Of a stretch of 64,000 nucleotides of DNA, positions 43,206-53,841 are shown one piece after another. The notes under the pieces were generated by a model. The model made no database searches and was not told the origin of the DNA. It saw only the letters and a program-made list of their open reading frames with translations. The DNA is from Escherichia coli (lineage in GTDB: Bacteria > Pseudomonadota > Gammaproteobacteria > Enterobacterales > Enterobacteriaceae): assembly GCF_003019035.1 (NCBI RefSeq), contig NZ_CP027448.1; one strand, given 5' to 3'. How positions within the stretch are numbered: the first letter of the stretch is position 1; every line of letters starts with the position of its first letter. The translations under genes were made by a program, and so were the position numbers.

Positions 43206-43559
43206 GGGAATTCTCCTCTCACATGCGGCCTCCATCAGGCCGTGCCGCACCTGTAACCGGGCGACCGCATACGAATGCAGGTGCGGCCCCGAAGCCGCAG
43301 CGCGTGGAGGAGGAACGACGAAACGTGACCGGGTGAGGAGGCCGGCGACAGCGACACACTTGCATCGGATGCAGCCCAGTTAACGTGCCGGCACGGCCTG
43401 GGTAACCAGGTATTTTGTCCACAGAACCGTGCACAAAATGCTGTGGATAAGCTGGACACAGCAGCCCACAGCAGGCATACAGCCACACCCTCAGAGAATT
43501 GAACGTTTTTTAGCCGCAACAATGACATTTGACTGTATGTGGATTCAGTTATTAGAATG

Positions 43560-43575
43560 CTGTATATGCATACAG
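43560..43575 (+). promoter_or_regulatory. LexA operator (SOS box) upstream of impC
   Basis: CTGTATATGCATACAG fits CTGT-N8-ACAG; a weaker CTGTATGTGGATTCAG lies at 43542-43557. Confidence 0.75.
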
Positions 43576-43598: not shown

Positions 43599-43847
43599 AT
43601 GATCCGCATTGAAATTCTTTTCGACCGCCAGAGCACAAAAAACCTCAAATCAGGCACACTTCAGGCGCTACAGAATGAAATCGAACAACGACTGAAACCA
43701 CACTACCCGGAAATCTGGCTGCGTATAGACCAGGGCAGCGCCCCGTCTGTATCTGTCACAGGAGCCCGCAACGACAAGGATAAAGAACGTATCCTGTCTC
43801 TGCTGGAAGAAATCTGGCAGGACGACAGCTGGCTGCCTGCAGCATGA
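43599..43847 (+). CDS. impC: DinI-like small protein (ImpC-like)
   Basis: 82 aa MIRIEILFDRQ...EEIWQDDSWLPAA; start chosen downstream of the LexA box. Confidence 0.75.
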   Translation: MIRIEILFDRQSTKNLKSGTLQALQNEIEQRLKPHYPEIWLRIDQGSAPSVSVTGARNDKDKERILSLLEEIWQDDSWLPAA

Positions 43848-44281
43848 GTACCGTTTATCACCGTCCGGCTGACCCTTCAGGCGATGACAGTTACGTGCGA
43901 CCGTTGTTTGCCGATCGTTGCCAGGCCGGTTTTCCTTCGCCTGCCACTGATTATGCTGAGCAGGAACTGGATCTGAACAGCTATTGCATCAGCAGACCTG
44001 CAGCCACCTTCTTTCTGCGCGCCAGCGGTGAATCGATGAACCAGGCTGACGTGCAGAATGGTGATCTGCTGGTAGTGGACAGGGCCGAAAAACCACAACA
44101 CGGGGACATCGTTATCGCTGAGATCGACGGTGAGTTCACCGTCAAACGACTGCTGTTGCGCCCACGCCCGGCACTGGAGCCGGTTTCAGACAGCCCGGAG
44201 TTCCGCACACTGTATCCGGAAAACATCTGTATTTTTGGTGTTGTCACTCACGTGATACACAGGACGCGGGAGTTACGCTGA
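43844..44281 (+). CDS. impA: UmuD/ImpA-like S24 peptidase subunit of error-prone polymerase
   Basis: 145 aa with Ser-Lys dyad context (ASGESM ... FTVKRL). Confidence 0.88.
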   Translation: MSTVYHRPADPSGDDSYVRPLFADRCQAGFPSPATDYAEQELDLNSYCISRPAATFFLRASGESMNQADVQNGDLLVVDRAEKPQHGDIVIAEIDGEFTVKRLLLRPRPALEPVSDSPEFRTLYPENICIFGVVTHVIHRTRELR

Positions 44282-44407
44282 TGTTTACACTGGCTGATAT
44301 CAACAGTTTCTACGCCTCATGTGAAAAAGTTTTCCGCCCGGACCTTCGCAACGAACCGGTCATCGTACTCAGCAATAACGATGGCTGTGTGATCGCACGC
44401 AGCCCAG
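44281..44407 (+). pseudogene. impB: 5' fragment of umuC/impB-like Y-family polymerase gene, interrupted by insertion
   Basis: Translates MFTLADINSFYASCEKVFRPDLRNEPVIVLSNNDGCVIARSP then homology is lost at 44408. Confidence 0.85.
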
Positions 44408-44453
44408 ATTATGTGGAATTGCAAGTAACGTTGTAGTGCTGATGAGGAAAATT

Positions 44454-46682
44454 TTATCTGACTACAATATTGATATCGTTTTCCGCAACAATCAGCATCA
44501 CGGCAGGTAAACCCTCCACACGCATTTTCTGGTGTAATTTTTTGATTAAATTATCATCTTCATTACTGGCTTTTGCGGAAAAGCCTTGTGGATGGGAGTG
44601 CCATTCGCCAACATAATCGACAACACGAGCGGTCAACTGGTGAACCCGTTCTAATGCTTCTTGTTGTCCCGCTTCTCCCCGGACAAAGGAGGCTGGAGAG
44701 GATTTACTGTCGATAGGTTCAGGGAGCACGTCAACCAGAATAATCGTTTTGTTCTTAAAATCTGTTATGCCAACAATTGCACCTCCTGTTTCATTAGGCA
44801 GTGCCTGTAAGCGGGTGTGCTGCAATTTTTGCGCTAAGCCCTGGTCATATTTAACAACCCATTCGCCAGAAATTATAGATACCACGGAATAGAGTTCAAT
44901 TTCATGTGCATCCATCGCGCCTGATATTTCATCAGATACCCAGATACACAATCGAGCATTTCCTTTGAGTGCAGTCTGGCGAAGTTGGCGTGAGAGGATA
45001 CCGGCATGAACATGAATACATTCACTGGACATACGTACAGAAATATCCCGACATCCACCACCGACCCAACGATCGCCATAATTGTGCTGTAGGTGAGTAC
45101 TTCCCCACTCACTGCTCAAAATTGCCCGATAGTATTGCCCCTCAATTGCATCAATTCGGCATTGTCTGTCTACATCCTCCATTAACATCACGCTAGACTG
45201 ACCCGATGGAGTCAGAAACAGGCTAACTATTCTGGGTATATCATCTTTTAACACTAGAGTCCTCGGCACCTCAAAGGTGGTACTGACATCCACAACTAAG
45301 TCTGCCTCATTCATTGCCTTAGCAATATCATCATCGTCATCAAGAATACTTTTATGGATCGCCTGAGGGAGGGGCTCATGCGGATAAATAGATTTGGCAA
45401 TATGCTGAATAATATGGGGTTTTGAGACTCCAATATGACAATCAAACCCAATATGGCGAGACAAATTATGTGGAAGAAGCCGATCTGGATCAATAAAAGT
45501 CCATGTCCCCCACCCCATTCGAATCCAAATATCAGCCAATGTACTACCAAGAGCGCCAACTCCAGCTAAAATACCTCGAAAAGCTGCACTCTCTGAATCA
45601 ACAGCAGATATGTCTCTCGCATGTGTGGCCTTCATAGCCGAACGTATTTCAACTGGTAAAAGCGGTAATTGTCGCCACTTGGTACTAATTGATCCGCCAA
45701 GAAGCCGTACGCGATGCTGTACTCCTCGCTCATTTTTTGGCGCCAGCATATCTAGTGCAGTGGCAAGTTCACCGAGTGAACTTTGCACAACATAGCCCAT
45801 CACATCCGTACGTTCTGTTTCTCCGTTTCTTAGACGGGGGATCCAAAGCAGGATAAGTAAGCCTTCTCCTTTACCAGACGTTGGGCGGATACCATCACTT
45901 GGTATTGCTTCATAAACAGCGTCAGTTAGTGGTTTTAGGAGCTCACTTCCCCATTCATTAAGTTGTTCTTCTAATTTTCCCAGATTATCCGGGTATGTAG
46001 CCACCGTAGAAACATCGACAGGAGGAACAGCAATAGTTAATAAGCGAAATGGCTTAACGCTTGAGGTATCTTGTTCTGGTACAGCCCTTAAAATAATCGG
46101 TCGCCCCTCACTGACCATCTGGAGACTGAGCTTATTGTCAGTCGCGTGATGATAATCGGGGTAATTGGCTGGCAAAATGAGCTGATAGGGACTCAAATAA
46201 AAAAGTTGCTCAAGTGGCTGATCTTCTCGATGTAGATGCAGTTCGGCCGATTCTCTAAGCCACCAAAAAATGCGCTCAAGGAATCTCTCGGGGGTCCAAC
46301 TGCGCTCAACTGCGCTCCAGGAGGCCTCATATAGGCAAAGAATTCGTGGTGAGCCAGGTTCTCCAGCATGCTGGTGAGAAAGAACAGGGAAATCTTTCCG
46401 CAATGCATGAACCAAGATAGGTATGCTTGATTTGGGATTGACCTCAATAGCCAATCGTTCTTTACGACGAATACGGGCTTGATTACCAGAAGCCACAGTC
46501 CCATCAGCAGCATCAATGATTAGATATTCCGAGCGGTTATCATTTATTTCAGAAAATCGTAATTCTCTGACTGTGACGTAAGGATGATTCTCGCATGCTT
46601 TAAGCAGCGAAATCGTTTGTGGATAAAGGCTATCGCGCCCCGATGAATCGAGGCGCTCACCCAATTCGAAATATTCGATCAT
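44454..46682 (-). CDS. Multidomain E2-like / E1-like (ThiF) / JAB-JAMM peptidase fusion protein (742 aa)
   Basis: HQH..10 aa..C (E2-like), GILAGVGALGSTLADIW...IDPD (ThiF Rossmann), EWHSHPQGFSAKASNEDD (JAMM HxH..S..D) read directly from the translation; ATGA overlap with upstream MBL gene. Confidence 0.75.
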   Translation of the reverse strand: MIEYFELGERLDSSGRDSLYPQTISLLKACENHPYVTVRELRFSEINDNRSEYLIIDAADGTVASGNQARIRRKERLAIEVNPKSSIPILVHALRKDFPVLSHQHAGEPGSPRILCLYEASWSAVERSWTPERFLERIFWWLRESAELHLHREDQPLEQLFYLSPYQLILPANYPDYHHATDNKLSLQMVSEGRPIILRAVPEQDTSSVKPFRLLTIAVPPVDVSTVATYPDNLGKLEEQLNEWGSELLKPLTDAVYEAIPSDGIRPTSGKGEGLLILLWIPRLRNGETERTDVMGYVVQSSLGELATALDMLAPKNERGVQHRVRLLGGSISTKWRQLPLLPVEIRSAMKATHARDISAVDSESAAFRGILAGVGALGSTLADIWIRMGWGTWTFIDPDRLLPHNLSRHIGFDCHIGVSKPHIIQHIAKSIYPHEPLPQAIHKSILDDDDDIAKAMNEADLVVDVSTTFEVPRTLVLKDDIPRIVSLFLTPSGQSSVMLMEDVDRQCRIDAIEGQYYRAILSSEWGSTHLQHNYGDRWVGGGCRDISVRMSSECIHVHAGILSRQLRQTALKGNARLCIWVSDEISGAMDAHEIELYSVVSIISGEWVVKYDQGLAQKLQHTRLQALPNETGGAIVGITDFKNKTIILVDVLPEPIDSKSSPASFVRGEAGQQEALERVHQLTARVVDYVGEWHSHPQGFSAKASNEDDNLIKKLHQKMRVEGLPAVMLIVAENDINIVVR

Positions 46683-47866
46683 TGGTTTGATACACCTGCC
46701 CTAGGAGCGGCGGCCGTAGCAGCACTTACCGCAGCTGAAACAGCACCAACAATAGCGGGTATTAACTTCCCGTCTCCAGCCACTTCAAATTCAAGGAACG
46801 CTGTATCTTTAAGATCCCCCGTACAGCTAAACCAACCATCAACACTGTCCAGAATATCCTCATACTCACGCTTAGCCCGGATGCACGGTGGATCATAATC
46901 ATCATCAAGTATCTGATTGCTACTCGATACAATTGTTGCCCCGGAACGAGCCTGACCTAAAGCATTACGGGCCGCATCACAAACTTCAGCATTCTCCCCC
47001 CATTGTGACCAGCTATCATAGGAAAGTGAATGCCATGAACAATGATGCGGTGTGAGGAGAAGATCATATTCTAGTGCCTCAGCATTGCTTTTGTAACGAT
47101 CCCATAATCGCTCCCAGATGAGAACTTCTGCGTCTCCACCTAATAGAAAGTGCATAGGATTACGGGAATATGCAGAGGGCAGTATTTTCATGTTCATGAT
47201 GATACTGGATTCGTTTTTAGAAAGAGCTTCTTCCAAATATTCATCATCTTCATGTGGTGCGGGCGCCAGAAGCTGTGCGGAGAACACTTCTGAAATTTGC
47301 CCGTCAATTCTGGTGAATGTATCTCCAGCTTTGATAAGAATGGCACTCAGATCATCTGTTTTGCCATTAATATCTTCACCCATGATAAGGATTCGATTAC
47401 CGCTAGATGCATAACCATGTTCCCGCCAGTATTTTACTCGGCGCCGTGCTTCTGTATTAAATGCCTGAGCATCTTCGCAAAGTGTGTGACTTTTGGAACG
47501 ACGCCGAAAAATCAATGGTGATGACCACAATTCTCGAATAATGATACGCTTTTCTGAACGTTTCACATCGTCATCTGGATAATCTTCAGGACGGCCCAGC
47601 CAGAAATGTTTACGCAGGCCACCGCAATGATCCTGATCGGGATGACTGAGCATAAAAACATCAATAAAGGGACGATCTTTTTCATCATACTTCAATCTGC
47701 TACGTAATGCCGAGGCAACATCAGGTGTGTCATCATTGGGGTTATCAGCAGCAGAGCGAATATGTACATCAATCAGAATGGATGTGCCCCGGGTGTCGGC
47801 CAAACGTACCAGTGTCATATCACCGTTGCCGACTTGGAAAAAAGTAATTTTGGCTGCCATCGACAT
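46679..47866 (-). CDS. Metallo-beta-lactamase-fold protein (395 aa) with Ala/Gly-rich C-terminal tail
   Basis: MBL-like motifs ...LIDVH..., SHPDQDHCGG, ...TPHHCSWH...; C-terminus ...AIVGAVSAAVSAATAAAPRAGVSNQ. Confidence 0.75.
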   Translation of the reverse strand: MSMAAKITFFQVGNGDMTLVRLADTRGTSILIDVHIRSAADNPNDDTPDVASALRSRLKYDEKDRPFIDVFMLSHPDQDHCGGLRKHFWLGRPEDYPDDDVKRSEKRIIIRELWSSPLIFRRRSKSHTLCEDAQAFNTEARRRVKYWREHGYASSGNRILIMGEDINGKTDDLSAILIKAGDTFTRIDGQISEVFSAQLLAPAPHEDDEYLEEALSKNESSIIMNMKILPSAYSRNPMHFLLGGDAEVLIWERLWDRYKSNAEALEYDLLLTPHHCSWHSLSYDSWSQWGENAEVCDAARNALGQARSGATIVSSSNQILDDDYDPPCIRAKREYEDILDSVDGWFSCTGDLKDTAFLEFEVAGDGKLIPAIVGAVSAAVSAATAAAPRAGVSNQ

Positions 47867-47994
47867 CTCCTTTAGGGATACGAAAGATTGAGGTTAAGAG
47901 CATCTATTGCTAAGATACATCTAGTAATTATACTAGTCTAGTAATTAGACGTATATTTTGGACTTAAATTGTAAGTACAGGAAATTATTGATAA
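47867..47994. promoter_or_regulatory. Divergent promoter/operator region with tandem direct repeats (TCTAGTAATTA x2)
   Basis: AT-rich intergenic region between divergent MBL operon and WYL gene; repeats at about 47918-47950. Confidence 0.4.
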
Positions 47995-48849
47995 ATGAGT
48001 GATAAAATGGTGAGAACTGGTCATTGGAGCCAAGAAAGACGGCTTGAATTCATCGATTTTCGCCTACTGTGGGAAGGTCGGCTTAACCGTGCAGATCTCA
48101 CGACATTTTTCAGAATTTCAGTTCCGCAAGCCTCATTAGATTTGGCAAAATATCAAGAAGTTGCGCCAAACAACATGGTGTATGATCGAACTCAGAAGGC
48201 TTACATTACGACTCCTGATTTCAAACCTGTTTTTACAAGCTTTGACAGTAATCATTACCTGAATGAACTACTTGGGCGAGAAAATGAAATAGTGGATCCT
48301 GATGATAGTTTCATTGGGTGGGTACCCCCGGTAGCCAGCCTTCCTCTCCCTGCCAGGAAAGTACAACCTGAAATATTGATTGATTTAATTCGAGCCATGC
48401 AAAGAAAACAGGCTTTGGTTGTTGATTATCGCTCAATGACTAATGAACCAGCAATTCGTACGCTATACCCAACAGCATTTGCACATGATGGGCATCGGTG
48501 GCATGTTCGTGCTTATTGTTTTAAGTCTACAATGTTTAAAGATTTTGTTCTTGGTAGGTTTTTTAAAATCGTTGAATTTGTTTCCCCACCGACATCAATT
48601 CCACAAGATGTGGACTGGAATACATTTATTGACGTGGTAATAGGTCCAAACCCTAACTACGATATGAATAAACGGCTATCTATTGAACATGATTATCAAA
48701 TGGTAAAAGGAGAAGCAAAAATCCACATACGTAAAGCGCAATTATATTATCTTAATCGTCGATTAAATTTGGATGTAAATAGCGATGGTTCAATAGATGA
48801 CAAACAGCAGATCATCATGCTCAGAATAGACGAGTCTAAAACCTATTAA
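47995..48849 (+). CDS. HTH-WYL domain transcriptional regulator (BrxR/CapW-like)
   Basis: 284 aa; central ...HDGHRWHVRAYCFKSTMFKDFVLGRFFKI... fits the WYL pattern; N-terminal HTH-like region. Confidence 0.7.
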   Translation: MSDKMVRTGHWSQERRLEFIDFRLLWEGRLNRADLTTFFRISVPQASLDLAKYQEVAPNNMVYDRTQKAYITTPDFKPVFTSFDSNHYLNELLGRENEIVDPDDSFIGWVPPVASLPLPARKVQPEILIDLIRAMQRKQALVVDYRSMTNEPAIRTLYPTAFAHDGHRWHVRAYCFKSTMFKDFVLGRFFKIVEFVSPPTSIPQDVDWNTFIDVVIGPNPNYDMNKRLSIEHDYQMVKGEAKIHIRKAQLYYLNRRLNLDVNSDGSIDDKQQIIMLRIDESKTY

Positions 48850-48861
48850 GGGAATATTTAT

Positions 48862-49380
48862 ATGAATGCGAATGATGTTAACAAACGGAATAAAGAATGG
48901 ATGATTGTAATCATTATTATCTATCTTTTTATTTTGTTATGTATAGCAACATACGCTATTGGGGCTATGTCTCTAGGTTGGTTACCAACACCTTACGCAC
49001 CATTAAGGGTGCCACTGATGTGCGGAGCAATTGCCTATATAGGTGGTTGTTTATATTGTTTTCGTGCAATTTACCTCAATAAATGTATTAGAAAACAATG
49101 GGATCCAGATTGGCATGTATGGTATTTCATTCGCCCACTGACCAGTACAATCGCAGGTGCTATCAGTTATTTATTCCTTAAGGCGGGGTTGTTAGTTTTG
49201 GAGTCTAGTTCCAATGTAGGAGCTAGTGAAATGGGTTTCTTTGCGCTGGCATTTATTGCTGGTTTTAACGTCGATAAATTTGTCGCAAAAATCGAGGAAG
49301 TTGCAAAGGCTGTCTGGGGTATTGAAAAAACTCGAAGCTCGACTAATAATGATGCGAAAAATTCGGAAAAAAAAGAATAG
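48862..49380 (+). CDS. Small membrane protein (about 4 predicted TM helices, 172 aa)
   Basis: Hydrophobic segments throughout; 12 bp downstream of the WYL gene. Confidence 0.55.
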   Translation: MNANDVNKRNKEWMIVIIIIYLFILLCIATYAIGAMSLGWLPTPYAPLRVPLMCGAIAYIGGCLYCFRAIYLNKCIRKQWDPDWHVWYFIRPLTSTIAGAISYLFLKAGLLVLESSSNVGASEMGFFALAFIAGFNVDKFVAKIEEVAKAVWGIEKTRSSTNNDAKNSEKKE

Positions 49381-49426
49381 TCTGGATGTATTTAAATTAA
49401 AATGAAATTAGTGCTGAGCTATTTTA

Positions 49427-50746
49427 TTACTTTCTCTTATTTCCTGGGGTCGCGCCCCCAGTGAGCTTATTCAAAAGTTTGTCCACTGCCTGTATATCGT
49501 TTTCTACAGCGGCTTGTTCGTCATCAGTCAAAGGGATTTCCTGCATCAGCTTGAGTAGATTCTGGCGACCTTCCAAGTATTGTGCTTCAGATGAAGATTT
49601 TGGCATATAAAATGAGCATTTTGCACATGCCATCCGATGGGGGCATTGCTCAAAAAAGTCATAAGTACAGAAACCGTGTCCAAGATCATAATAACGCCAT
49701 GGCTTCCCGGATGCTACCAGCCCTTCAGCTATCGCGTCTTGATCAATGAGAACTGAAACCATGCGGCGATTACATTCAAAGTAACCAGCTTTATCCAGTG
49801 ATCCTGCCAACCTCGTCGGTGTAATTTCGACATAATGTCGGGTAGATTCAGGTGAAGAATGCCCCAACCATTTCTGTAGCTCAAAAATATCAAGTGGTTC
49901 CCTGGCGTTGTAAAGCTGACTGGCTATAGTGGCTCTTGCCCGATGGCTGGTGATTTTACCTCTGGCATCCTGCTCAGGTATACCAGCCTTTCTGCATAGC
50001 AAAGGGATTAGCGAATTATTAATATAACTACTGTGTACCCGTTTCCCCCTGTGCATGAACAAAAAACGGACGCTTTCACCTGTTTTAGAATCTTCCTGGA
50101 GGGGGTGGGGGTTACGAACAAGTTCCCATTGTTCGATATATTCCCCGATAATAGGGTCAACTGGCTTTGTGAATGCCGCGTAAGTCTTGCTAACGGGTAC
50201 ATCTATCAGACAGATACGGGATACATTATTTTCTTCTGGCTGTTGCCAGCGGATACACCCACACTGCATACGTAGAATTTCATCACGTCTGAGGCCTCCA
50301 AATAACCAGAGAACGCTGAGTGCTCTGACCATCTCCAGTGGATAAAAATAAGGATATGCAACACAGTTTGGTAAATCCGACTCCTGCAGGTTCTGTCCGG
50401 CGTGAAGTAATTTACACCACATATCATCGGCCACAATACGAGGCTCTGGTCCAACCAGGGAAGTCAAGCTACGCGGTGCCCTGAAAACTCTTTCTGGGCT
50501 GAATCGTACAGGTATCCATCCCCATTCCTGCAAGTCATGAAAGAAAGTTCTAATATGACCCAACATCCTGGCTCTCGCTGCAGGCATCATCATTTTGCCA
50601 CGACGGTCACGATACATGCCCCCAGGGGTTGCCCATTCACCAACTTTCATTCTACAAGCGGCGGTCACCCAGACGATCGCGGTGTCCCGTGTCCAATCAG
50701 ATGGTGACAGACAGGTTGGATAGCACTCAGCTAACCAGCTGACCAC
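49427..50746 (-). CDS. Tyrosine recombinase/integrase (439 aa)
   Basis: Catalytic signature residues: ...GGLRRDE..., ...SHRARAT..., ...LGHSSPESTRHYV... Confidence 0.85.
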   Translation of the reverse strand: MVSWLAECYPTCLSPSDWTRDTAIVWVTAACRMKVGEWATPGGMYRDRRGKMMMPAARARMLGHIRTFFHDLQEWGWIPVRFSPERVFRAPRSLTSLVGPEPRIVADDMWCKLLHAGQNLQESDLPNCVAYPYFYPLEMVRALSVLWLFGGLRRDEILRMQCGCIRWQQPEENNVSRICLIDVPVSKTYAAFTKPVDPIIGEYIEQWELVRNPHPLQEDSKTGESVRFLFMHRGKRVHSSYINNSLIPLLCRKAGIPEQDARGKITSHRARATIASQLYNAREPLDIFELQKWLGHSSPESTRHYVEITPTRLAGSLDKAGYFECNRRMVSVLIDQDAIAEGLVASGKPWRYYDLGHGFCTYDFFEQCPHRMACAKCSFYMPKSSSEAQYLEGRQNLLKLMQEIPLTDDEQAAVENDIQAVDKLLNKLTGGATPGNKRK

Positions 50747-51677
50747 ACTTTAGCAAAACGTACCAACCGGACAAAATAGATGAAGGGCGAAGTACTGAGG
50801 TAGCACGCCACCGTTTGCACCATACCAGCCATTTAGTTGGTACATCAGCTGTTGCATTATATTCGCGGGGAGGACGGCGACGTTGTGTTATTCGGTAATC
50901 AACCCCTTCCTCAATAGTCCCTGATGCAGCCAGTATACGCGATAGAGTAGCTGAGGCTTCCCGGAGGGAATCCGGGCACGTTGCAGCAATCTGTTGCAAC
51001 GTGGTCACGGTGATATGGTCTAGTTGAGCATCCCTTTGCAGAAGCATTGCCATACACATGGCATTTCTGATGCCGTTGTTCCGACTATCACGAGGCACAT
51101 ATCCCAGAACCTGCATCATATTGTCAAGCTGGCTGACGGCAAAATCGGTGCTCTGTCGGCCAAAAACCTTAAGACAGAGCCGATATTGATAGAATATGCC
51201 ACAGTGTTCCAGCCGCTCAAACCCACATAGCAACCATGCTAACGCTATAACATATTGCCGACAGTTGCCGCTGGCTCCAAACCGTCGACGAAATTCCCCT
51301 TCGCTGTTGCAAATAACTTCTAACCACTCTTCTTGTGTCCAGGCCCAGTATGTTTTCCGGATGCGCTGCATCTCTAGGACTATATCGTGAATAGATGAAT
51401 TGTAGGGGGCCTTGGCCGCATGCATTTTTGTTAGCGTGTCGCGTAGTGGTAAAAGAAGGCGGGAAAGCCGTTTTTGTATATCAGGTGACCAGTTTTTACC
51501 TCCTTGCTGGAAGTGGTCGACCAATGTATCCAGTGCCGCAAGCTCGCTTTCAGAGATCTCCGATCGGGTATCCCAAAGTAGGGCAGGAAGACTGAGTGAT
51601 GTTGTCGGACAAGGCGCTGTATGTTCAGATTGCATCATGGAGAAGGATCCTGCTGTTGTAGTACAGTAAGGCGGCAA
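50727..51677 (-). CDS. Recombinase-operon middle gene (316 aa), divergent/uncertain
   Basis: Overlaps both neighbours (translational coupling); no clear R-H-R-Y motifs seen by eye. Confidence 0.55.
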   Translation of the reverse strand: MPPYCTTTAGSFSMMQSEHTAPCPTTSLSLPALLWDTRSEISESELAALDTLVDHFQQGGKNWSPDIQKRLSRLLLPLRDTLTKMHAAKAPYNSSIHDIVLEMQRIRKTYWAWTQEEWLEVICNSEGEFRRRFGASGNCRQYVIALAWLLCGFERLEHCGIFYQYRLCLKVFGRQSTDFAVSQLDNMMQVLGYVPRDSRNNGIRNAMCMAMLLQRDAQLDHITVTTLQQIAATCPDSLREASATLSRILAASGTIEEGVDYRITQRRRPPREYNATADVPTKWLVWCKRWRATSVLRPSSILSGWYVLLKCGQLVS

Positions 51678-52687
51678 GTATGCAAGGATGCGACCGTGTA
51701 ATTGAAACGACTACTCAGATCACGTGCGCTGAGATGAATATAGAGCAGAGTTGACTGGATACGACGGTGGCCAGCGAATGCAGCAATTTCGTGGATGTCC
51801 CACCCCACGCGTGCCAGTTCTGTCAGACAAAGATGTCGGAATGTGTGGGTGCTGATGAGTGGAAGATCAGCCTTAATAGCTAAACCGCGAACTACTTTTG
51901 ACCAAGTCCAGTTGCTAATAGGTTCTGCCCGATTACGCGGAGAGCGTGAGAGAAACAACGGACCGCGAGATGAGCTTAGCATACGACGTTCAGTGAGCCA
52001 TGCTGTGTAGAGTTCCCCCGTCACAGGAGAATAGGGCACAACCCGACCAAAGCGGTTTTTGGTATGCTCAGCGCGCACAGTGAGCAAGCGTTGAGAAGGG
52101 TCAATATCTCCGGTAGCTACTGTGCAAAGTTCTTCTCTGCGTAATCCGCAGTCGTAGGCCAGTGCCAGCATAAAACGAGTACGGATATCAGCTTGTCCGG
52201 CTACCTCAAGAAAGCGCAACCACTCCGCATCATCCGGGATCCACGGTAGCCGCCGCTGCAACGGCACTATACCAGCTTTTCCTTTCCCTCCGTTTTTCCA
52301 GACACCTCGTCTGACAGGATTTCTCTCCCGTATCCCCTCCTCACAAAGCCAATAGTTGTACAGTCGTACCACCGTCAGCCGGTGGCGGATAGTGGCAGCT
52401 GCCAGCTGGCGACCGGTATGCAGGCTGCGGACATAGAGTGCGACCGTATCACGTCCAGCGACAGCAGCCGTCAGGGCAACAGAGTGACAGAAAGCGAGCC
52501 AGTCATTGACGCCACGGGCATAGGCATCAATGGTGTTTGGAGCACACAGCAGGTCCTCCTGCAGGCACACCCACCGGCAAGCTGAAGGATCGGCCGACAG
52601 AAAAGGCAGCGCATCCAGCAGTTTCTTGTGCACAGCATCCCCCTTTTCGATAACAGAATGTGTTGTATGAAATATAGTCAATTCCAA
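51635..52687 (-). CDS. Tyrosine recombinase (XerC/D-like, 350 aa)
   Basis: ...CGLRREEL..., ...HTFRHLCLTELA..., ...GHRRIQSTLLYIH...; start lies 9 bp from element end. Confidence 0.85.
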   Translation of the reverse strand: MELTIFHTTHSVIEKGDAVHKKLLDALPFLSADPSACRWVCLQEDLLCAPNTIDAYARGVNDWLAFCHSVALTAAVAGRDTVALYVRSLHTGRQLAAATIRHRLTVVRLYNYWLCEEGIRERNPVRRGVWKNGGKGKAGIVPLQRRLPWIPDDAEWLRFLEVAGQADIRTRFMLALAYDCGLRREELCTVATGDIDPSQRLLTVRAEHTKNRFGRVVPYSPVTGELYTAWLTERRMLSSSRGPLFLSRSPRNRAEPISNWTWSKVVRGLAIKADLPLISTHTFRHLCLTELARVGWDIHEIAAFAGHRRIQSTLLYIHLSARDLSSRFNYTVASLHTCRLTVLQQQDPSP

Positions 52688-52696
52688 ATAACATAG

Positions 52697-53841
52697 AAGC
52701 GAAGCGGCTGGGCATAAAAATGGGAGTACCGTGGTTTCAGCTGAAGTCGGTGAAATTTCCGGAGCCGGTCATCGCCTTCTCCAGTAATTACGCGCTATAC
52801 GCATCGATGTCGAACAGGGTTATGTCTCATCTCGAGGAGCTGGCGCCGGGCGTGGAGCAGTACAGTATTGATGAGATGTTTCTCGACGTGCGGGGTATTG
52901 ACAGCTGCATCGATTTCGAGGATTTCGGCCGGCAGCTGCGTGAACACGTCAGGAACGGGACTGGCCTGACTATCGGTGTCGGAATGGGGCTAACCAAAAC
53001 GCTGGCAAAGTCAGCACAGTGGGCTTCCAAAGAGTGGCCACAGTTTGGTGGCGTGCTGGCGTTAACGCCAGGCAATATCCGCCGTACGGAAAAACTGCTG
53101 TCACTGCAGCCGGTGGAGGAAATCTGGGGGGTAGGCAGCAGGATATCAAAGAAGCTGAACACAATGGGGATAACAACTGCACTGCAGCTGGCGCGCGCTA
53201 ACCCTGTATTTATCAGGAAAAACTTCAATGTGGTTCTGGAGAGAACGGTCCGGGAACTCACCGGAGAAAGCTGTATTTCACTGGAGGAAGCACCGCCCCC
53301 CAAACAGCAGATAGTCTGCAGCAGGAGCTTTGGGGAACGTGTCACAACTTATGAAGCCATGCGACAGGCAGTTTGTCAGTACGCTGAGCGTGCAGCTGAA
53401 AAGCTGCGCGGCGAGCGTCAGTTCTGCAGGCATATTGCCGTGTTTGTGAAAACATCGCCGTTCGCCGTAAATGAGCCCTACTACGGTAATCTGGCCAGTG
53501 AAAAACTGCTCATCCCCACGCAGGATACACGGGACATCATTGCCGCTGCCGTCAGAGCTCTGGACAGGATCTGGGGGGATGGTCACCGTTACGCAAAGGC
53601 AGGCTGTATGCTGAACGATTTCGCTCCTGACGGGGTTTCGCTGTTGAACCTGTTCGATGATACTCAGCTCCGAAGCAACAGCAATCAGCTGATGAAAGTT
53701 GTGGACGGTATTAATCATTCAGGACTCGGAAAAGTGTGGTTTGCAGGCCGGGGGATTGCATCTGAATGGCAAATGAAACGGGAGATGCTTTCACCAGACT
53801 ATACAACTCGCTGGTCTGAACTACCAGTAGCGAAATTATGA
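52697..53841 (+). pseudogene. impB: 3' portion of umuC/impB-like Y-family polymerase gene (continues frame of 44281-44407)
   Basis: EAKRLGIKMGVPWFQLKSVKFPEPVIAFSSNYALYASMSNRVM...SRSFGERVTTYEAMRQAV... matches remembered UmuC/MucB; track ORF 52720-53841 starts at internal Met. Confidence 0.88.

What the first reader, a model, noticed from the sequence alone, without database searches (positions are those of the whole stretch)
44281..53841. Plasmid SOS-mutagenesis operon retains LexA box, impC and impA but has impB disrupted
The LexA operator, DinI-like impC and UmuD-like impA look intact, while the polymerase subunit gene is split into a 42-codon 5' piece and a 3' piece. The plasmid has presumably lost error-prone translesion synthesis, and the inserted element may be transcribed under SOS control by read-through from the imp promoter into its left end.
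Basis: inference. Interest (0 to 1): 0.45.

Follow-up and report, generated by a model that had tools for sequence, protein, structure and literature searches.

The report
Defence-carrying integrative element splits plasmid impB
A plasmid's SOS mutagenesis operon has lost its polymerase gene to an 8.3 kb site-specific mobile element that carries an anti-phage system, targets one conserved spot in umuC-type genes in many bacteria, and here looks stranded, so the case is explainable and only moderately new.

Summary
Two LexA boxes over a promoter, intact impC and impA, and an impB split after nt 128 are all present. The interpretation needs three corrections.

1. The insert (44409-52697, 8,289 bp) is a site-specific integrative element. 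It has a short (IntA) and a long (IntB) tyrosine recombinase, 13-bp inverted ends and a 6-bp core, and makes no target duplication. It belongs to the TnpC-less, Tn554-related class. Relatives sit at this exact hexamer (impB nt 123-128) in umuC-family genes of Entero-, Alpha- and Betaproteobacteria and Acidobacteria, mostly in this orientation and occasionally reversed. Its cargo is the 6A-MBL anti-phage system, a WYL/BrxR-type regulator and a membrane protein.

2. The two "impB pieces" are not halves of one gene. The 5' piece is IncI/K-type (41/42 aa identical). The 3' piece is an IncF-type umuC (67% identical to IncI ImpB). Identity collapses at the element's end, which implies recombination through the element.

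3. Read-through from the imp promoter enters antisense to the convergent defence genes. intB carries a +1 frameshift shared by related plasmids, so self-excision is unlikely, and any restored gene would be chimeric.

Verdict: an ordinary gene disruption by a new member of a known kind of element. Interest is moderate.

The parts
43529..43558 (+). imp promoter-like site (TTGACT-18-TAGAAT)
   Evidence: 10 of 12 consensus matches; it overlaps LexA box 1
43533..43548 (.). LexA box 1, CTGTATGTGGATTCAG
   Evidence: 14/20 to the 20-mer consensus
43560..43575 (.). LexA box 2, CTGTATATGCATACAG
   Evidence: 16/20 to the consensus
43599..43847 (+). impC (DinI-like), intact
   Evidence: Pfam PF06183, 65 bits; identical to the protein of the intact operon in pESBL-283
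43844..44281 (+). impA (UmuD-like S24 peptidase), intact
   Evidence: Pfam PF00717, 83.5 bits; one substitution relative to pESBL-283
44281..44408 (+). 5' piece of impB (IncI/K-type allele, codons 1-42 plus 2 nt); the ORF runs on to a stop at 44436
   Evidence: 41/42 aa identical to IncI ImpB. Only 5 nt differences from pESBL-283 across 43600-44408.
44403..44408 (.). Target-derived core hexamer CCCAGA (impB nt 123-128)
   Evidence: Junction comparison with the empty site in pESBL-283 and with other insertions
44409..52697 (.). Integrative element, 8,289 bp
   Evidence: Boundaries come from copies in other targets. The element is 98-99.9% identical in E. coli, E. albertii and Klebsiella plasmids and in the E. 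coli CEC15 chromosome.
44409..44421 (+). Cargo-side terminal inverted repeat TTATGTGGAATTG
   Evidence: 12/13 complementary to the other end
44454..46682 (-). 6A-MBL cap2_3 protein (E2-E1-JAB fusion, 742 aa)
   Evidence: NCBIfam NF058523, 661 bits against a cutoff of 320; Pfam Prok-E2_A, ThiF and Prok-JAB
46679..47866 (-). 6A-MBL MBL-fold protein (395 aa)
   Evidence: NCBIfam NF058524, 425.6 bits against a cutoff of 220
47912..47957 (.). Divergent-promoter region with tandem or palindromic TCTAGTAATTA repeats; a candidate operator of the WYL regulator
   Evidence: a promoter-like site at 47907-47934. The operator role is an inference.
47995..48849 (+). WYL-domain regulator, annotated as BrxR family in RefSeq copies
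   Evidence: Pfam WYL, 33.6 bits; annotation in L004
48862..49380 (+). 172-aa predicted membrane protein with no family match
   Evidence: conserved alongside the regulator in the 83%-identical cargo variant
49427..51677 (-). intB, the long tyrosine recombinase. Here it is split by a +1 frameshift near 50740 into ORFs 50727-51677 and 49427-50746.
51635..52687 (-). intA, the short tyrosine recombinase (332 aa from the GTG at 52633; the ORF is open to the TTG at 52687)
   Evidence: Pfam Phage_integrase, 101.6 bits, plus a SAM-like N-terminal domain; R-H-R-H-Y positions are invariant in alignment A1
52679..52691 (+). IntA-side terminal inverted repeat CAATTCCAAATAA
52692..52697 (.). Element-borne core hexamer CATAGA
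   Evidence: The same hexamer is found next to nine different umuC-family targets
52698..53841 (+). 3' piece of a different (IncF-type) umuC/samB-like gene, codons 43-423; first internal ATG at 52720
   Evidence: 67% aa identity to IncI ImpB. About 92% identical by hand count over the 37 nt right of the junction to the umuC of a C. koseri IncFIB plasmid (tblastn 92% aa over residues 1-76). 85% identical to SamB.

Best explanation
The region is a LexA-regulated impCAB-type SOS mutagenesis operon whose polymerase gene is occupied by an 8,289-bp site-specific integrative element.

The element:
- It encodes a short tyrosine recombinase (IntA, ~332 aa) and a long one (IntB, 736 aa when intact). IntB has an unclassified helical N-terminal domain, then core-binding and catalytic domains, then a Cys-rich tail.
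- It ends in 13-bp inverted repeats. In a circular form these would flank a 6-bp core: CAATTCCAAATAA-CATAGA-TTATGTGGAATTG.
- It inserts without target duplication at one fixed hexamer of umuC-family genes, running from the 3rd nt of codon 41 to the 2nd nt of codon 43.
- After insertion, the element's own hexamer stays at the IntA end and the target's hexamer stays at the cargo end.
- By gene content and homology it belongs with the TnpC-less, Tn554-related two-recombinase elements. The lack of a TnpC-like orientation factor fits the observation that near-identical copies occur in both orientations. That link is an inference.
- Its cargo is a complete-looking 6A-MBL anti-phage system (E2-E1-JAB 'cap2_3' plus an MBL-fold enzyme), a divergently transcribed WYL/BrxR-type regulator and a small membrane protein.

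This copy:
- The left flank (impC, impA, impB codons 1-42) is the IncI/K-type imp operon.
- The right flank is the 3' part of a different, IncF-type umuC.
- The present arrangement therefore arose by recombination through the element, not by a simple insertion. The route could be homologous exchange between two element copies, or site-specific recombination between an element end and a second umuC site.
- intB carries a +1 frameshift inside a predicted helix. The same frameshift is present in pSE11-2 and in ColV-plasmid remnants. The element is thus most likely an immobilised passenger retained for its defence cargo.

Consequences:
- ImpC and ImpA should still be SOS-induced.
- No plasmid polymerase V catalytic subunit is made.
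- SOS read-through would run antisense into the defence operon.
For: Anatomy and domains.

Boundaries and the no-duplication, 6-bp rule:
- The same element sits in IncI-type impB in pAMSC6, with attL gcgcgcagCCCGGA|TTATGTGG and attR AAATAACATAGA|ggcaaaagcc. The intact pESBL-283 reads gcgcgcagCCCGGAggcaaaagcc.
- It also sits in E. coli chromosomal umuC.
- In a Klebsiella plasmid umuC it sits at the same hexamer in reverse. Only direct reverse insertion restores an ORF there.

Target conservation: the same codon-41-43 hexamer is used in Pantoea, Erwinia, Paracoccus, Terriglobus, Pyrinomonadaceae and Comamonas. In metagenome contigs, CATAGA lies next to further umuC alleles.

Class assignment:
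- A short recombinase plus a long 730-780-aa recombinase, as single ORFs, is the rule across homologs.
- IntA homologs occur on pRHL2 and pREL1, plasmids listed for the Tn554-related TnpC-less class in PMC3414803.

Frameshift.

Chimeric flanks: identity to pESBL-283 is ~100% up to the junction and 55-70% after it. The same pattern holds against pAMSC6. Only 5 SNPs lie in the 809 bp to the left. Protein identity is 41/42 on one side and 255/382 on the other.

Cargo: NCBIfam equivalogs for both 6A-MBL proteins score well above cutoff. The literature context is operon type 6a of Iyer 2006, and 6A-MBL is cited as an experimentally confirmed anti-phage system.
Against: - Nothing here is experimental.
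- The frameshifted intB leaves two open ORFs with an overlapping GTG restart, so residual activity through translational coupling cannot be excluded. An intact copy elsewhere in the cell could act in trans on the intact ends.
- Direct sequence comparison with Tn554 TnpA, TnpB and TnpC was not possible because no sequence was held. I did not confirm that the pRHL2 locus I hit, which is degenerate, is the one tabulated by Van Houdt et al.
- No plasmid was found that carries the IncF-type allele with its own 5' half. The 'two parents' scenario is therefore inferred from the identity break alone.
- Two of the five left-flank SNPs lie within 12 bp of the junction. This leaves the exact crossover point ambiguous by a few bases.
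- What determines orientation is unknown. Hexamer identity does not explain it, since matches range from 1/6 to 4/6.
Confidence: 0.8

Rival explanations
1. First reader's model. A single impB gene was split by a simple insertion. The element is brought under SOS control by read-through from the imp promoter, and frequent excision could restore ImpB.
For: The joined pieces give a full 423-aa ORF. No terminator-like site is predicted between impA and the element. SOS-coupled integrase expression has been proposed for rulB elements (PMC4542609), and co-directional relatives exist.
Against: The flanks are non-cognate: 41/42 against 67% identity. All genes at the entered end are on the opposite strand. 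intB is frameshifted.
Confidence: 0.12
2. The insert is a three-recombinase element (RIT, GInt or the Pseudomonas rulB 'integron-like element'), because three consecutive recombinase-like ORFs are seen.
For: Three overlapping minus-strand ORFs lie at 49427-52687. rulB ILEs and GInts carry three recombinase genes and use 6-nt staggered cuts.
Against: - The second and third ORFs form one 736-aa gene in intact copies and in all distant homologs.
- The middle ORF has no recombinase domain.
- BLASTP finds no meaningful similarity to the pGRT1 ILE recombinases.
- The ILE site is the D codon of SN(N/S)DGC, about 24 bp upstream of this site.
- No ginD, tetR-like or tnpC-like ORF is present.
Confidence: 0.04
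3. The identity break at the junction reflects ordinary mosaicism of umuC-family alleles, through homologous recombination in the conserved 5' coding region, and is unrelated to the element.
For: Leading regions of IncF and IncI plasmids share homologous segments. Two SNPs cluster in the last 12 bp of the left flank.
Against: The switch from ~100% to ~60% identity falls within ≤12 bp of the element's end in a 1.27-kb gene. Right up to the junction, the left flank is IncI-like and unlike the IncF-type 5' sequence seen in L091.
Confidence: 0.1

Closest known systems
Tn554-related two-recombinase elements lacking TnpC (Van Houdt et al. 2012, PMC3414803; Famint36 and Famint41 pairs on actinobacterial plasmids such as pRHL2 and pREL1)
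   Same: - An adjacent, co-directional short (~350 aa) and abnormally long (611-828 aa) tyrosine recombinase.
- The long one has a large N-terminal extension of no known domain.
- No TnpC partner.
- Identical copies occur on chromosomes and plasmids.
- IntA homologs (45% and 32% identity) are found on the same plasmids.
- Compact 3.3-3.5 kb two-gene versions exist (L024, L007).
   Different: - That class was described mainly in Actinobacteria, with no target defined.
- The subfamily found here is in Proteobacteria and Acidobacteria and has a precisely conserved target in umuC-family genes.
- It carries cargo: 6A-MBL, ars genes and others.
- Direct similarity to Tn554 TnpA and TnpB was not tested.
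Pseudomonas rulB-targeting integron-like elements (Rhodes et al. 2014, PMC4542609; pWW0::ILE, pGRT1, PAGI-5)
   Same: - Site-specific insertion into the 5' end of a umuC-family gene downstream of a LexA-regulated promoter.
- A conserved recombinase module plus variable cargo.
- Movement between chromosomal and plasmid copies of the target.
- An apparent 3-bp 'repeat' at the junctions.
   Different: - Three recombinases plus a small fourth gene.
- No detectable sequence relationship to IntA or IntB.
- The site is the D codon of SN(N/S)DGC, ~24 bp upstream.
- The recombinases are always co-directional with rulAB; here they are divergent.
Strand-biased circularizing integrative elements and GInts (Idola et al. 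2023, PMC10214605; Bardaji et al. 2017, PMC5385486)
   Same: [quoted passage not shown]
- 13-19-bp imperfect terminal inverted repeats.
- A 6-bp core whose two copies differ after insertion.
- Target specificity.
- No transfer genes.
   Different: - No separate tfp/ginC or srap/ginD genes.
- The element-borne hexamer stays constant at the IntA-proximal end. In SEs, the target hexamer sits next to the intA end and a footprint of the previous site sits at the far end.
- The host range here spans several phyla.
Near-identical copies of this very element (pAMSC6, E. coli CEC15 chromosome, pSE11-2, ColV plasmids, K. pneumoniae IncFIB/HI1B plasmids)
   Same: 98-99.9% nucleotide identity, with the same ends and cargo.
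   Different: - pAMSC6 and CEC15 have an intact intB and cognate flanks.
- ColV plasmids keep only an IS1-truncated recombinase module.
- The Klebsiella copies are inverted and create an in-frame UmuC(1-41)::IntA ORF.

Membership tests
impCAB / umuDC-type SOS mutagenesis operon | LexA operator(s) at the promoter | tested here: met
   Two CTG-N10-CAG boxes overlap or follow a -35/-10 site
impCAB / umuDC-type SOS mutagenesis operon | DinI-like ImpC and UmuD-like self-cleaving ImpA | tested here: met
   Pfam hits above cutoff. The proteins are identical or differ by one residue from those of an intact operon.
impCAB / umuDC-type SOS mutagenesis operon | Intact Y-family polymerase subunit (ImpB/UmuC) | tested here: not met
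   The gene is interrupted after nt 128, and its two parts come from different alleles
Tn554-related two-recombinase elements (TnpC-less class) | Adjacent co-directional short and long tyrosine recombinases, both with catalytic residues | tested here: met
   IntA is 332 aa and IntB 736 aa in intact copies. R-H-R-H-Y columns are invariant. The IntB core has a Xer-like fold. In the window itself, intB is frameshifted.
Tn554-related two-recombinase elements (TnpC-less class) | Homology to the published members | tested here: inconclusive
   tblastn hits at 45% and 32% identity on pRHL2 and pREL1. The pRHL2 locus is a degenerate short-plus-long pair. Identity with the tabulated loci was not checked, and Tn554 itself was not compared.
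Tn554-related two-recombinase elements (TnpC-less class) | Site-specific insertion without target duplication, with a 6-bp core | tested here: met
   Filled and empty site comparisons in four targets
Pseudomonas rulB integron-like elements | Homologous recombinase trio plus a small fourth gene | tested here: not met
   BLASTP E-values of 0.006, 4e-4 and 0.048 over short motifs only. Gene content differs.
Pseudomonas rulB integron-like elements | Insertion at the GAT of SN(N/S)DGC, 123 bp into rulB | tested here: not met
   The window's site is codons 41-43, and the ILE site corresponds to codon 34 in ImpB numbering
RIT (recombinase in trio) | Three separate catalytic tyrosine recombinases and 34-bp terminal repeats | tested here: not met
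   The apparent trio is produced by a frameshift. The middle ORF lacks a recombinase domain. The terminal repeats are 13 bp.
SE / GInt | Four core genes (intA-tfp-intB-srap, or ginABCD) | tested here: not met
   There are only two recombinase genes and no further small ORF on that strand. Whether the IntB N- and C-terminal regions are fused Tfp-like or Srap-like domains could not be tested.
6A-MBL anti-phage system | E2-E1-JAB 'cap2_3' protein plus the dedicated MBL-fold protein, encoded adjacently | tested here: met
   NF058523 at 661 bits (cutoff 320) and NF058524 at 425.6 bits (cutoff 220). The genes overlap by 4 bp.
6A-MBL anti-phage system | Protection against phage | not testable with these tools
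   Known only from the literature

The most novel reading that the evidence does not exclude
umuC-family genes may act as a phylum-spanning landing pad. At least three element lineages use three different conserved motifs within the first ~80 codons:
- SN(N/S)DGC, used by the Pseudomonas ILEs;
- codons 41-43, used by the IntA/IntB subfamily seen here;
- SSNYxL|Y at codon ~76, used by a ~41%-identical sister subfamily found in mucB of IncL/M and umuC of IncFIB plasmids.

The TnpC-less Tn554-like lineage inserts in either orientation and keeps its own 6-bp core. By recombining at or through its ends it can join segments of different plasmids. It would then be an undescribed, non-self-transmissible vehicle that loads defence systems (6A-MBL) and resistance genes (ars) onto conjugative plasmids. 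In co-directional copies, including an in-frame UmuC(1-41)::IntA fusion, recombinase expression would be coupled to the SOS response.
Probability: 0.45. Interest if true: 0.6.

Novelty: new member of a known kind. Interest (0 to 1): 0.4.

Why it matters
For this plasmid, what looks like an SOS mutagenesis operon is really a LexA-controlled impC-impA remnant. A stranded anti-phage module sits where the polymerase should be. Predictions of plasmid-borne mutagenesis or "SOS-induced element expression" would therefore be wrong.

More generally, the case shows that umuC, impB, mucB and samB genes on conjugative plasmids and chromosomes are a precise, reusable docking site for two-recombinase elements. 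This may explain why these genes are so often annotated as pseudogenes. It offers a way for non-mobilizable defence and resistance cargo to hitch rides on plasmids. It also yields a compact two-gene recombinase system (3.3 kb in Pantoea) with a defined 13-6-13 site and a conserved natural target that could be tested directly.

Tried and rejected
- Trio reading. I first read the three minus-strand ORFs as a recombinase trio (RIT, GInt or ILE). I rejected this after aligning with the Klebsiella and CEC15 copies (single 736-aa IntB), after BLASTP against the pGRT1 ILE recombinases, and after hhalign of the IntB sub-domains.
- 3-bp duplication. I considered 'AGA' a target duplication. I rejected this because the shared bases are 3, 2 and 1 nt in different targets, and a 6-bp core model fits all of them.
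- In-situ inversion. I considered it as the origin of the reversed Klebsiella copy. I rejected it because only direct reverse insertion restores an ORF (reasoned).
- Core-hexamer identity as the determinant of orientation. Not supported, since matches range from 1/6 to 4/6.
- Read-through from parAB as a driver of intA. Unlikely, because a strong terminator follows parB (53975-53948).
- LexA boxes inside the element. None found apart from chance CTG-N10-CAG matches inside coding sequence.
- A high-identity empty site spanning both flanks. None exists in PLSDB. This absence is what revealed the chimeric flanks.
- A cognate 5' half for the IncF-type allele. Sought in plasmids and metagenome contigs and not found.
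- Literature searches for umuC with three tyrosine recombinases, for Cap2 with metallo-beta-lactamase, and for umuC defence hotspots returned nothing relevant.
Full report
**1. Observation**

- A sigma-70-like promoter lies at 43529-43558 (TTGACT-18-TAGAAT).
- It is overlapped by one LexA box (43533-43548) and followed by a near-consensus second box (43560-43575, CTGTATATGCATACAG).
- impC (43599-43847, DinI family) and impA (43844-44281, S24 peptidase) score well above the Pfam cutoffs.
- ImpC is identical to, and ImpA differs by one residue from, the proteins of an intact impCAB operon on the IncI-gamma/K plasmid pESBL-283.
- impB begins at 44281 and matches the IMS family only to profile position 40. 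The ORF then runs 9 codons into foreign DNA and stops at 44436.
- The remainder of a Y-family polymerase gene (IMS 49-146, IMS_C, DUF4113) occupies 52698-53841.
- Joining 44281-44408 to 52698-53841 gives a clean 423-aa ORF.

**2. What the insert is**

The insert is 8,289 bp (44409-52697). Its limits are set by copies of the same element (98-99.9% identical) that sit in other flanks:
- K. pneumoniae IncFIB/HI1B plasmids;
- E. coli chromosomal umuC in strain CEC15;
- the IncI/K-type impB of pAMSC6.

The minus strand at the right end encodes a short tyrosine recombinase, IntA (51635-52633/52687). Two further ORFs follow (50727-51677 and 49427-50746).
- In the Klebsiella, CEC15, pAMSC6 and Erwinia copies, and in every distant homolog, these two ORFs are a single gene of about 730-780 aa, IntB.
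- The window has one extra base (GTGGTC**A**GCTGG, near 50740). The same extra base is present in pSE11-2 and in a ColV plasmid remnant. It is absent from the Klebsiella (L001) and CEC15 (L004) copies compared, and pAMSC6 carries the intact 736-aa IntB (WP_046201802.1), identical to CEC15's.
- hhalign links residues 431-610 to the IntA catalytic domain (92.9%) and weakly links 261-430 to its core-binding domain. The first ~260 residues and the Cys-rich tail match nothing.
- The frameshift falls inside a predicted helix (285-305), so it is probably inactivating.

The ends are 13-bp inverted repeats: TTATGTGGAATTG at the cargo end and CAATTCCAAATAA at the IntA end.

**3. Cargo**
- 44454-46682 is an E2-E1-JAB fusion, and 46679-47866 is an MBL-fold protein.
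- Both match the NCBIfam equivalogs for the '6A-MBL' anti-phage system far above cutoff: 661 against 320 bits, and 426 against 220 bits.
- This is operon type 6a of Iyer et al. 2006. It is cited as experimentally confirmed in recent work.
- A divergent WYL regulator, annotated as BrxR family in RefSeq copies, and a 172-aa membrane protein follow.
- The intergenic region holds tandem TCTAGTAATTA repeats that overlap a promoter-like site.
- All cargo ORFs are full length.

**4. Insertion chemistry, read from the junctions**

Filled and empty sites compare as follows.

| Target | Cargo-end junction | IntA-end junction | Empty or intact site |
|---|---|---|---|
| IncI impB (pAMSC6 / pESBL-283) | gcgcgcag CCCGGA \| element | element …AAATAA CATAGA \| ggcaaaagcc | gcgcgcagCCCGGAggcaaaagcc |
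| E. coli umuC (CEC15) | gcccgaaa CGCTGA \| element | element …CATAGA \| ggcaaaggcg | not examined |
| Window | gcacgcag CCCAGA \| element | element …CATAGA \| agcgaagcgg | none available (see section 7) |

Sources.

- There is no target duplication. The 'AGA' seen at both ends of the window's copy is partial identity between two different hexamers.
- The target's hexamer (impB nt 123-128) stays at the cargo end. An element-borne hexamer stays at the IntA end.
- CATAGA recurs next to nine different umuC-family alleles.
- The inferred circular junction is a classical 13-6-13 tyrosine-recombinase core.
- In the Klebsiella plasmids the same element sits at the same hexamer in reverse. Only direct reverse insertion restores an ORF (A-R-C-K-L-A). 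That arrangement produces an in-frame UmuC(1-41)::IntA ORF of 394 aa.

**5. The family and its target**
- IntA has thousands of homologs.
- A scan of one genome per species, followed by tblastn with ImpB, found relatives with 49-83% IntA identity abutting umuC fragments at the same codon-41-43 hexamer. These are in Erwinia, Pantoea, Paracoccus, Terriglobus and Pyrinomonadaceae. One Pantoea element is a cargo-less 3.3 kb copy.
- A Comamonas plasmid copy carries ars genes.
- Among the IntA-end junctions scored for the CATAGA subfamily, eight are in the window's orientation and one is reversed. One Rhodobacter relative is also co-directional.
- A sister subfamily with ~41-43% IntA identity and the same short-plus-long gene pair inserts at a second motif, SSNYxL|Y near codon 76. 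It is found in mucB of an IncL/M plasmid, umuC of a C. koseri IncFIB plasmid and a Pseudomonadaceae plasmid.
- Many ~50%-identical homologs in Actinobacteria and Chloroflexi are compact 3.5-kb two-gene elements with no detectable umuC flank.

**6. Comparison with known systems**
- *Pseudomonas rulB elements.* Insertion of recombinase-bearing elements into rulB was shown experimentally by Rhodes et al. 2014. Those elements have three recombinases that show no meaningful BLASTP similarity to IntA or IntB. They insert at the D codon of SN(N/S)DGC, about 24 bp upstream. The window's element is therefore analogous, not a member.
- *GInts and SEs.* They share the 6-nt core logic and the pairing of an ordinary with a large recombinase, but they need four genes.
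- *Tn554-related elements.* This is the best fit: the class defined by Van Houdt et al. 2012, with a ~350-aa recombinase, a 611-828-aa recombinase and no TnpC. IntA homologs lie on plasmids from their table. The papers read cite Bastos & Murphy 1988 for TnpC influencing or determining the orientation of Tn554 insertions. The absence of TnpC here fits the two orientations observed. That link is an inference.

**7. The flanks are not cognate**
- No plasmid in PLSDB holds a high-identity uninterrupted version of the joined flanks.
- Against the intact pESBL-283 operon, identity is ~100% from impC to the junction and 55-70% immediately after it. The same holds against pAMSC6, where the element itself differs uniformly by ~0.5%.
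- Only five nucleotide differences lie in the 809 bp to the left, two of them within 12 bp of the junction.
- At the protein level, residues 1-42 are 41/42 identical to IncI ImpB. Residues 43-423 are 255/382 identical.
- The 3' allele resembles IncF-type umuC/samB: about 92% identical by hand count over the 37 nt right of the junction to a C. koseri IncFIB plasmid umuC (tblastn 92% aa over residues 1-76), and 85% identical to SamB.
- It lies in an IncF backbone context, next to parB-parA-repFIB.
- In the high-identity PLSDB rows shown, it is never listed as an intact CDS.
- The arrangement therefore arose by recombination at or through the element. Either two element copies in different umuC homologs underwent homologous exchange, or an element end recombined site-specifically with a second umuC site. 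I cannot separate these two routes.

**8.
- SOS induction should still produce ImpC and ImpA.
- The polymerase lacks either its N-terminal catalytic Asp (the 3' ORF from ATG 52720) or everything else (the 51-aa peptide). Loss of plasmid polymerase V is the reasonable inference. Rhodes et al. saw no UV-tolerance loss after rulB disruption, so this remains untested.
- Read-through from the imp promoter meets no predicted terminator. It runs antisense into cap2_3 and MBL, so it cannot express them.
- The recombinase genes face away from the imp promoter, and a strong terminator after parB shields them from that side.
- A weak outward promoter-like site (52650-52678) faces the 3' polymerase ORF. 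Its significance is unknown.
- Excision by this copy alone is unlikely because of the frameshift. If it happened, it would create a chimeric gene.

**9. Verdict**

This is a correctly observed but ordinary gene disruption. The agent is a new member of a known kind of mobile element, carrying a recently recognised defence system. The moderately interesting points are:
- the precise target, conserved across phyla;
- the flexibility of orientation;
- the constant element-borne hexamer;
- the non-cognate flanks.

All mechanistic statements about recombination, regulation and immobility are inferences from sequence comparison.

Noticed in passing
L001 10275-11459 (K. pneumoniae plasmid NZ_CP023917); protein P0023: In the reversed Klebsiella insertion, the IntA reading frame stays open through the element end. 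It fuses in frame to UmuC codons 1-41, giving an annotated 394-aa 'integrase' directly downstream of umuD. That would place the recombinase under the SOS promoter. A database protein with IMS plus Phage_integrase domains (P0023) shows the same fusion.
   Followed up: partly
L091 4706-5010, L092 4657-4960, L094 4840-4975: A sister subfamily (IntA ~41-43% identical, same short-plus-long recombinase pair, arms TAAGTTAAGTGGAATGC) inserts at a second conserved motif, SSNYxL|Y near codon 76. The targets are umuC of a C. koseri IncFIB plasmid, mucB of a Klebsiella IncL/M plasmid and a Pseudomonadaceae plasmid.
   Followed up: partly
L007 9955-13217 (Pantoea rodasii): A cargo-less, ~3.3-kb minimal version of the element (intA plus intB only) lies in umuC at the same hexamer, with the same CATAGA at the IntA end.
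   Followed up: partly
L024 and many 3.4-3.6 kb contigs among L013-L085: IntA homologs at ~50% identity in Actinobacteria, Chloroflexi and other phyla lie in compact two-gene elements (370 aa plus 777 aa). These often assemble as stand-alone ~3.5-kb contigs, which suggests multicopy elements. No umuC-like flank was detected.
   Followed up: no
L003 8288-12312 (pAPEC-O2-211A-ColV) and about 100 ColV/IncF plasmids: Many avian and extra-intestinal E. coli and Salmonella IncF plasmids keep only the recombinase module (window 49386-52697 equivalent, with the same frameshift) next to the umuC 3' remnant. It is truncated on the cargo side by IS1.
   Followed up: partly
window 52650-52720: An outward-facing promoter-like site (ATAACA-17-TATAGT) at the IntA end of the element points into the 3' polymerase piece, whose first ATG (52720) opens a 373-aa ORF. 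This recalls the 'rulB(2)' ORF discussed for Pseudomonas elements.
   Followed up: no
window 47912-47957: Tandem or palindromic TCTAGTAATTA repeats lie between the divergent MBL and WYL genes and overlap a promoter-like site. They are a likely operator of the WYL/BrxR-type regulator.
   Followed up: no
L005 and L090 (E. coli G3/10 chromosome; pKMi029_1): A cargo variant (83% identical 6A-MBL/WYL module) travels with a more distant recombinase pair (IntA 63.5% identical, end hexamer CATATA). It uses the same umuC hexamer. This shows exchange of cargo and recombinase modules.
   Followed up: partly
L100 1-4896 (metagenome contig): A derivative in IncI-type impB retains the first 131 bp and the recombinase module of the element. 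It has ~1.2 kb of unrelated sequence in place of the 6A-MBL cargo.
   Followed up: no
IntB residues 651-677 (alignment A2): An invariant C-x7-C-x-H-x3-C-x2-C motif lies in the C-terminal tail of the long recombinase, followed by two long helices. AF2 models the Cys region at low confidence. It may bind a metal or be a fused accessory (TnpC/Srap-like) domain.
   Followed up: no
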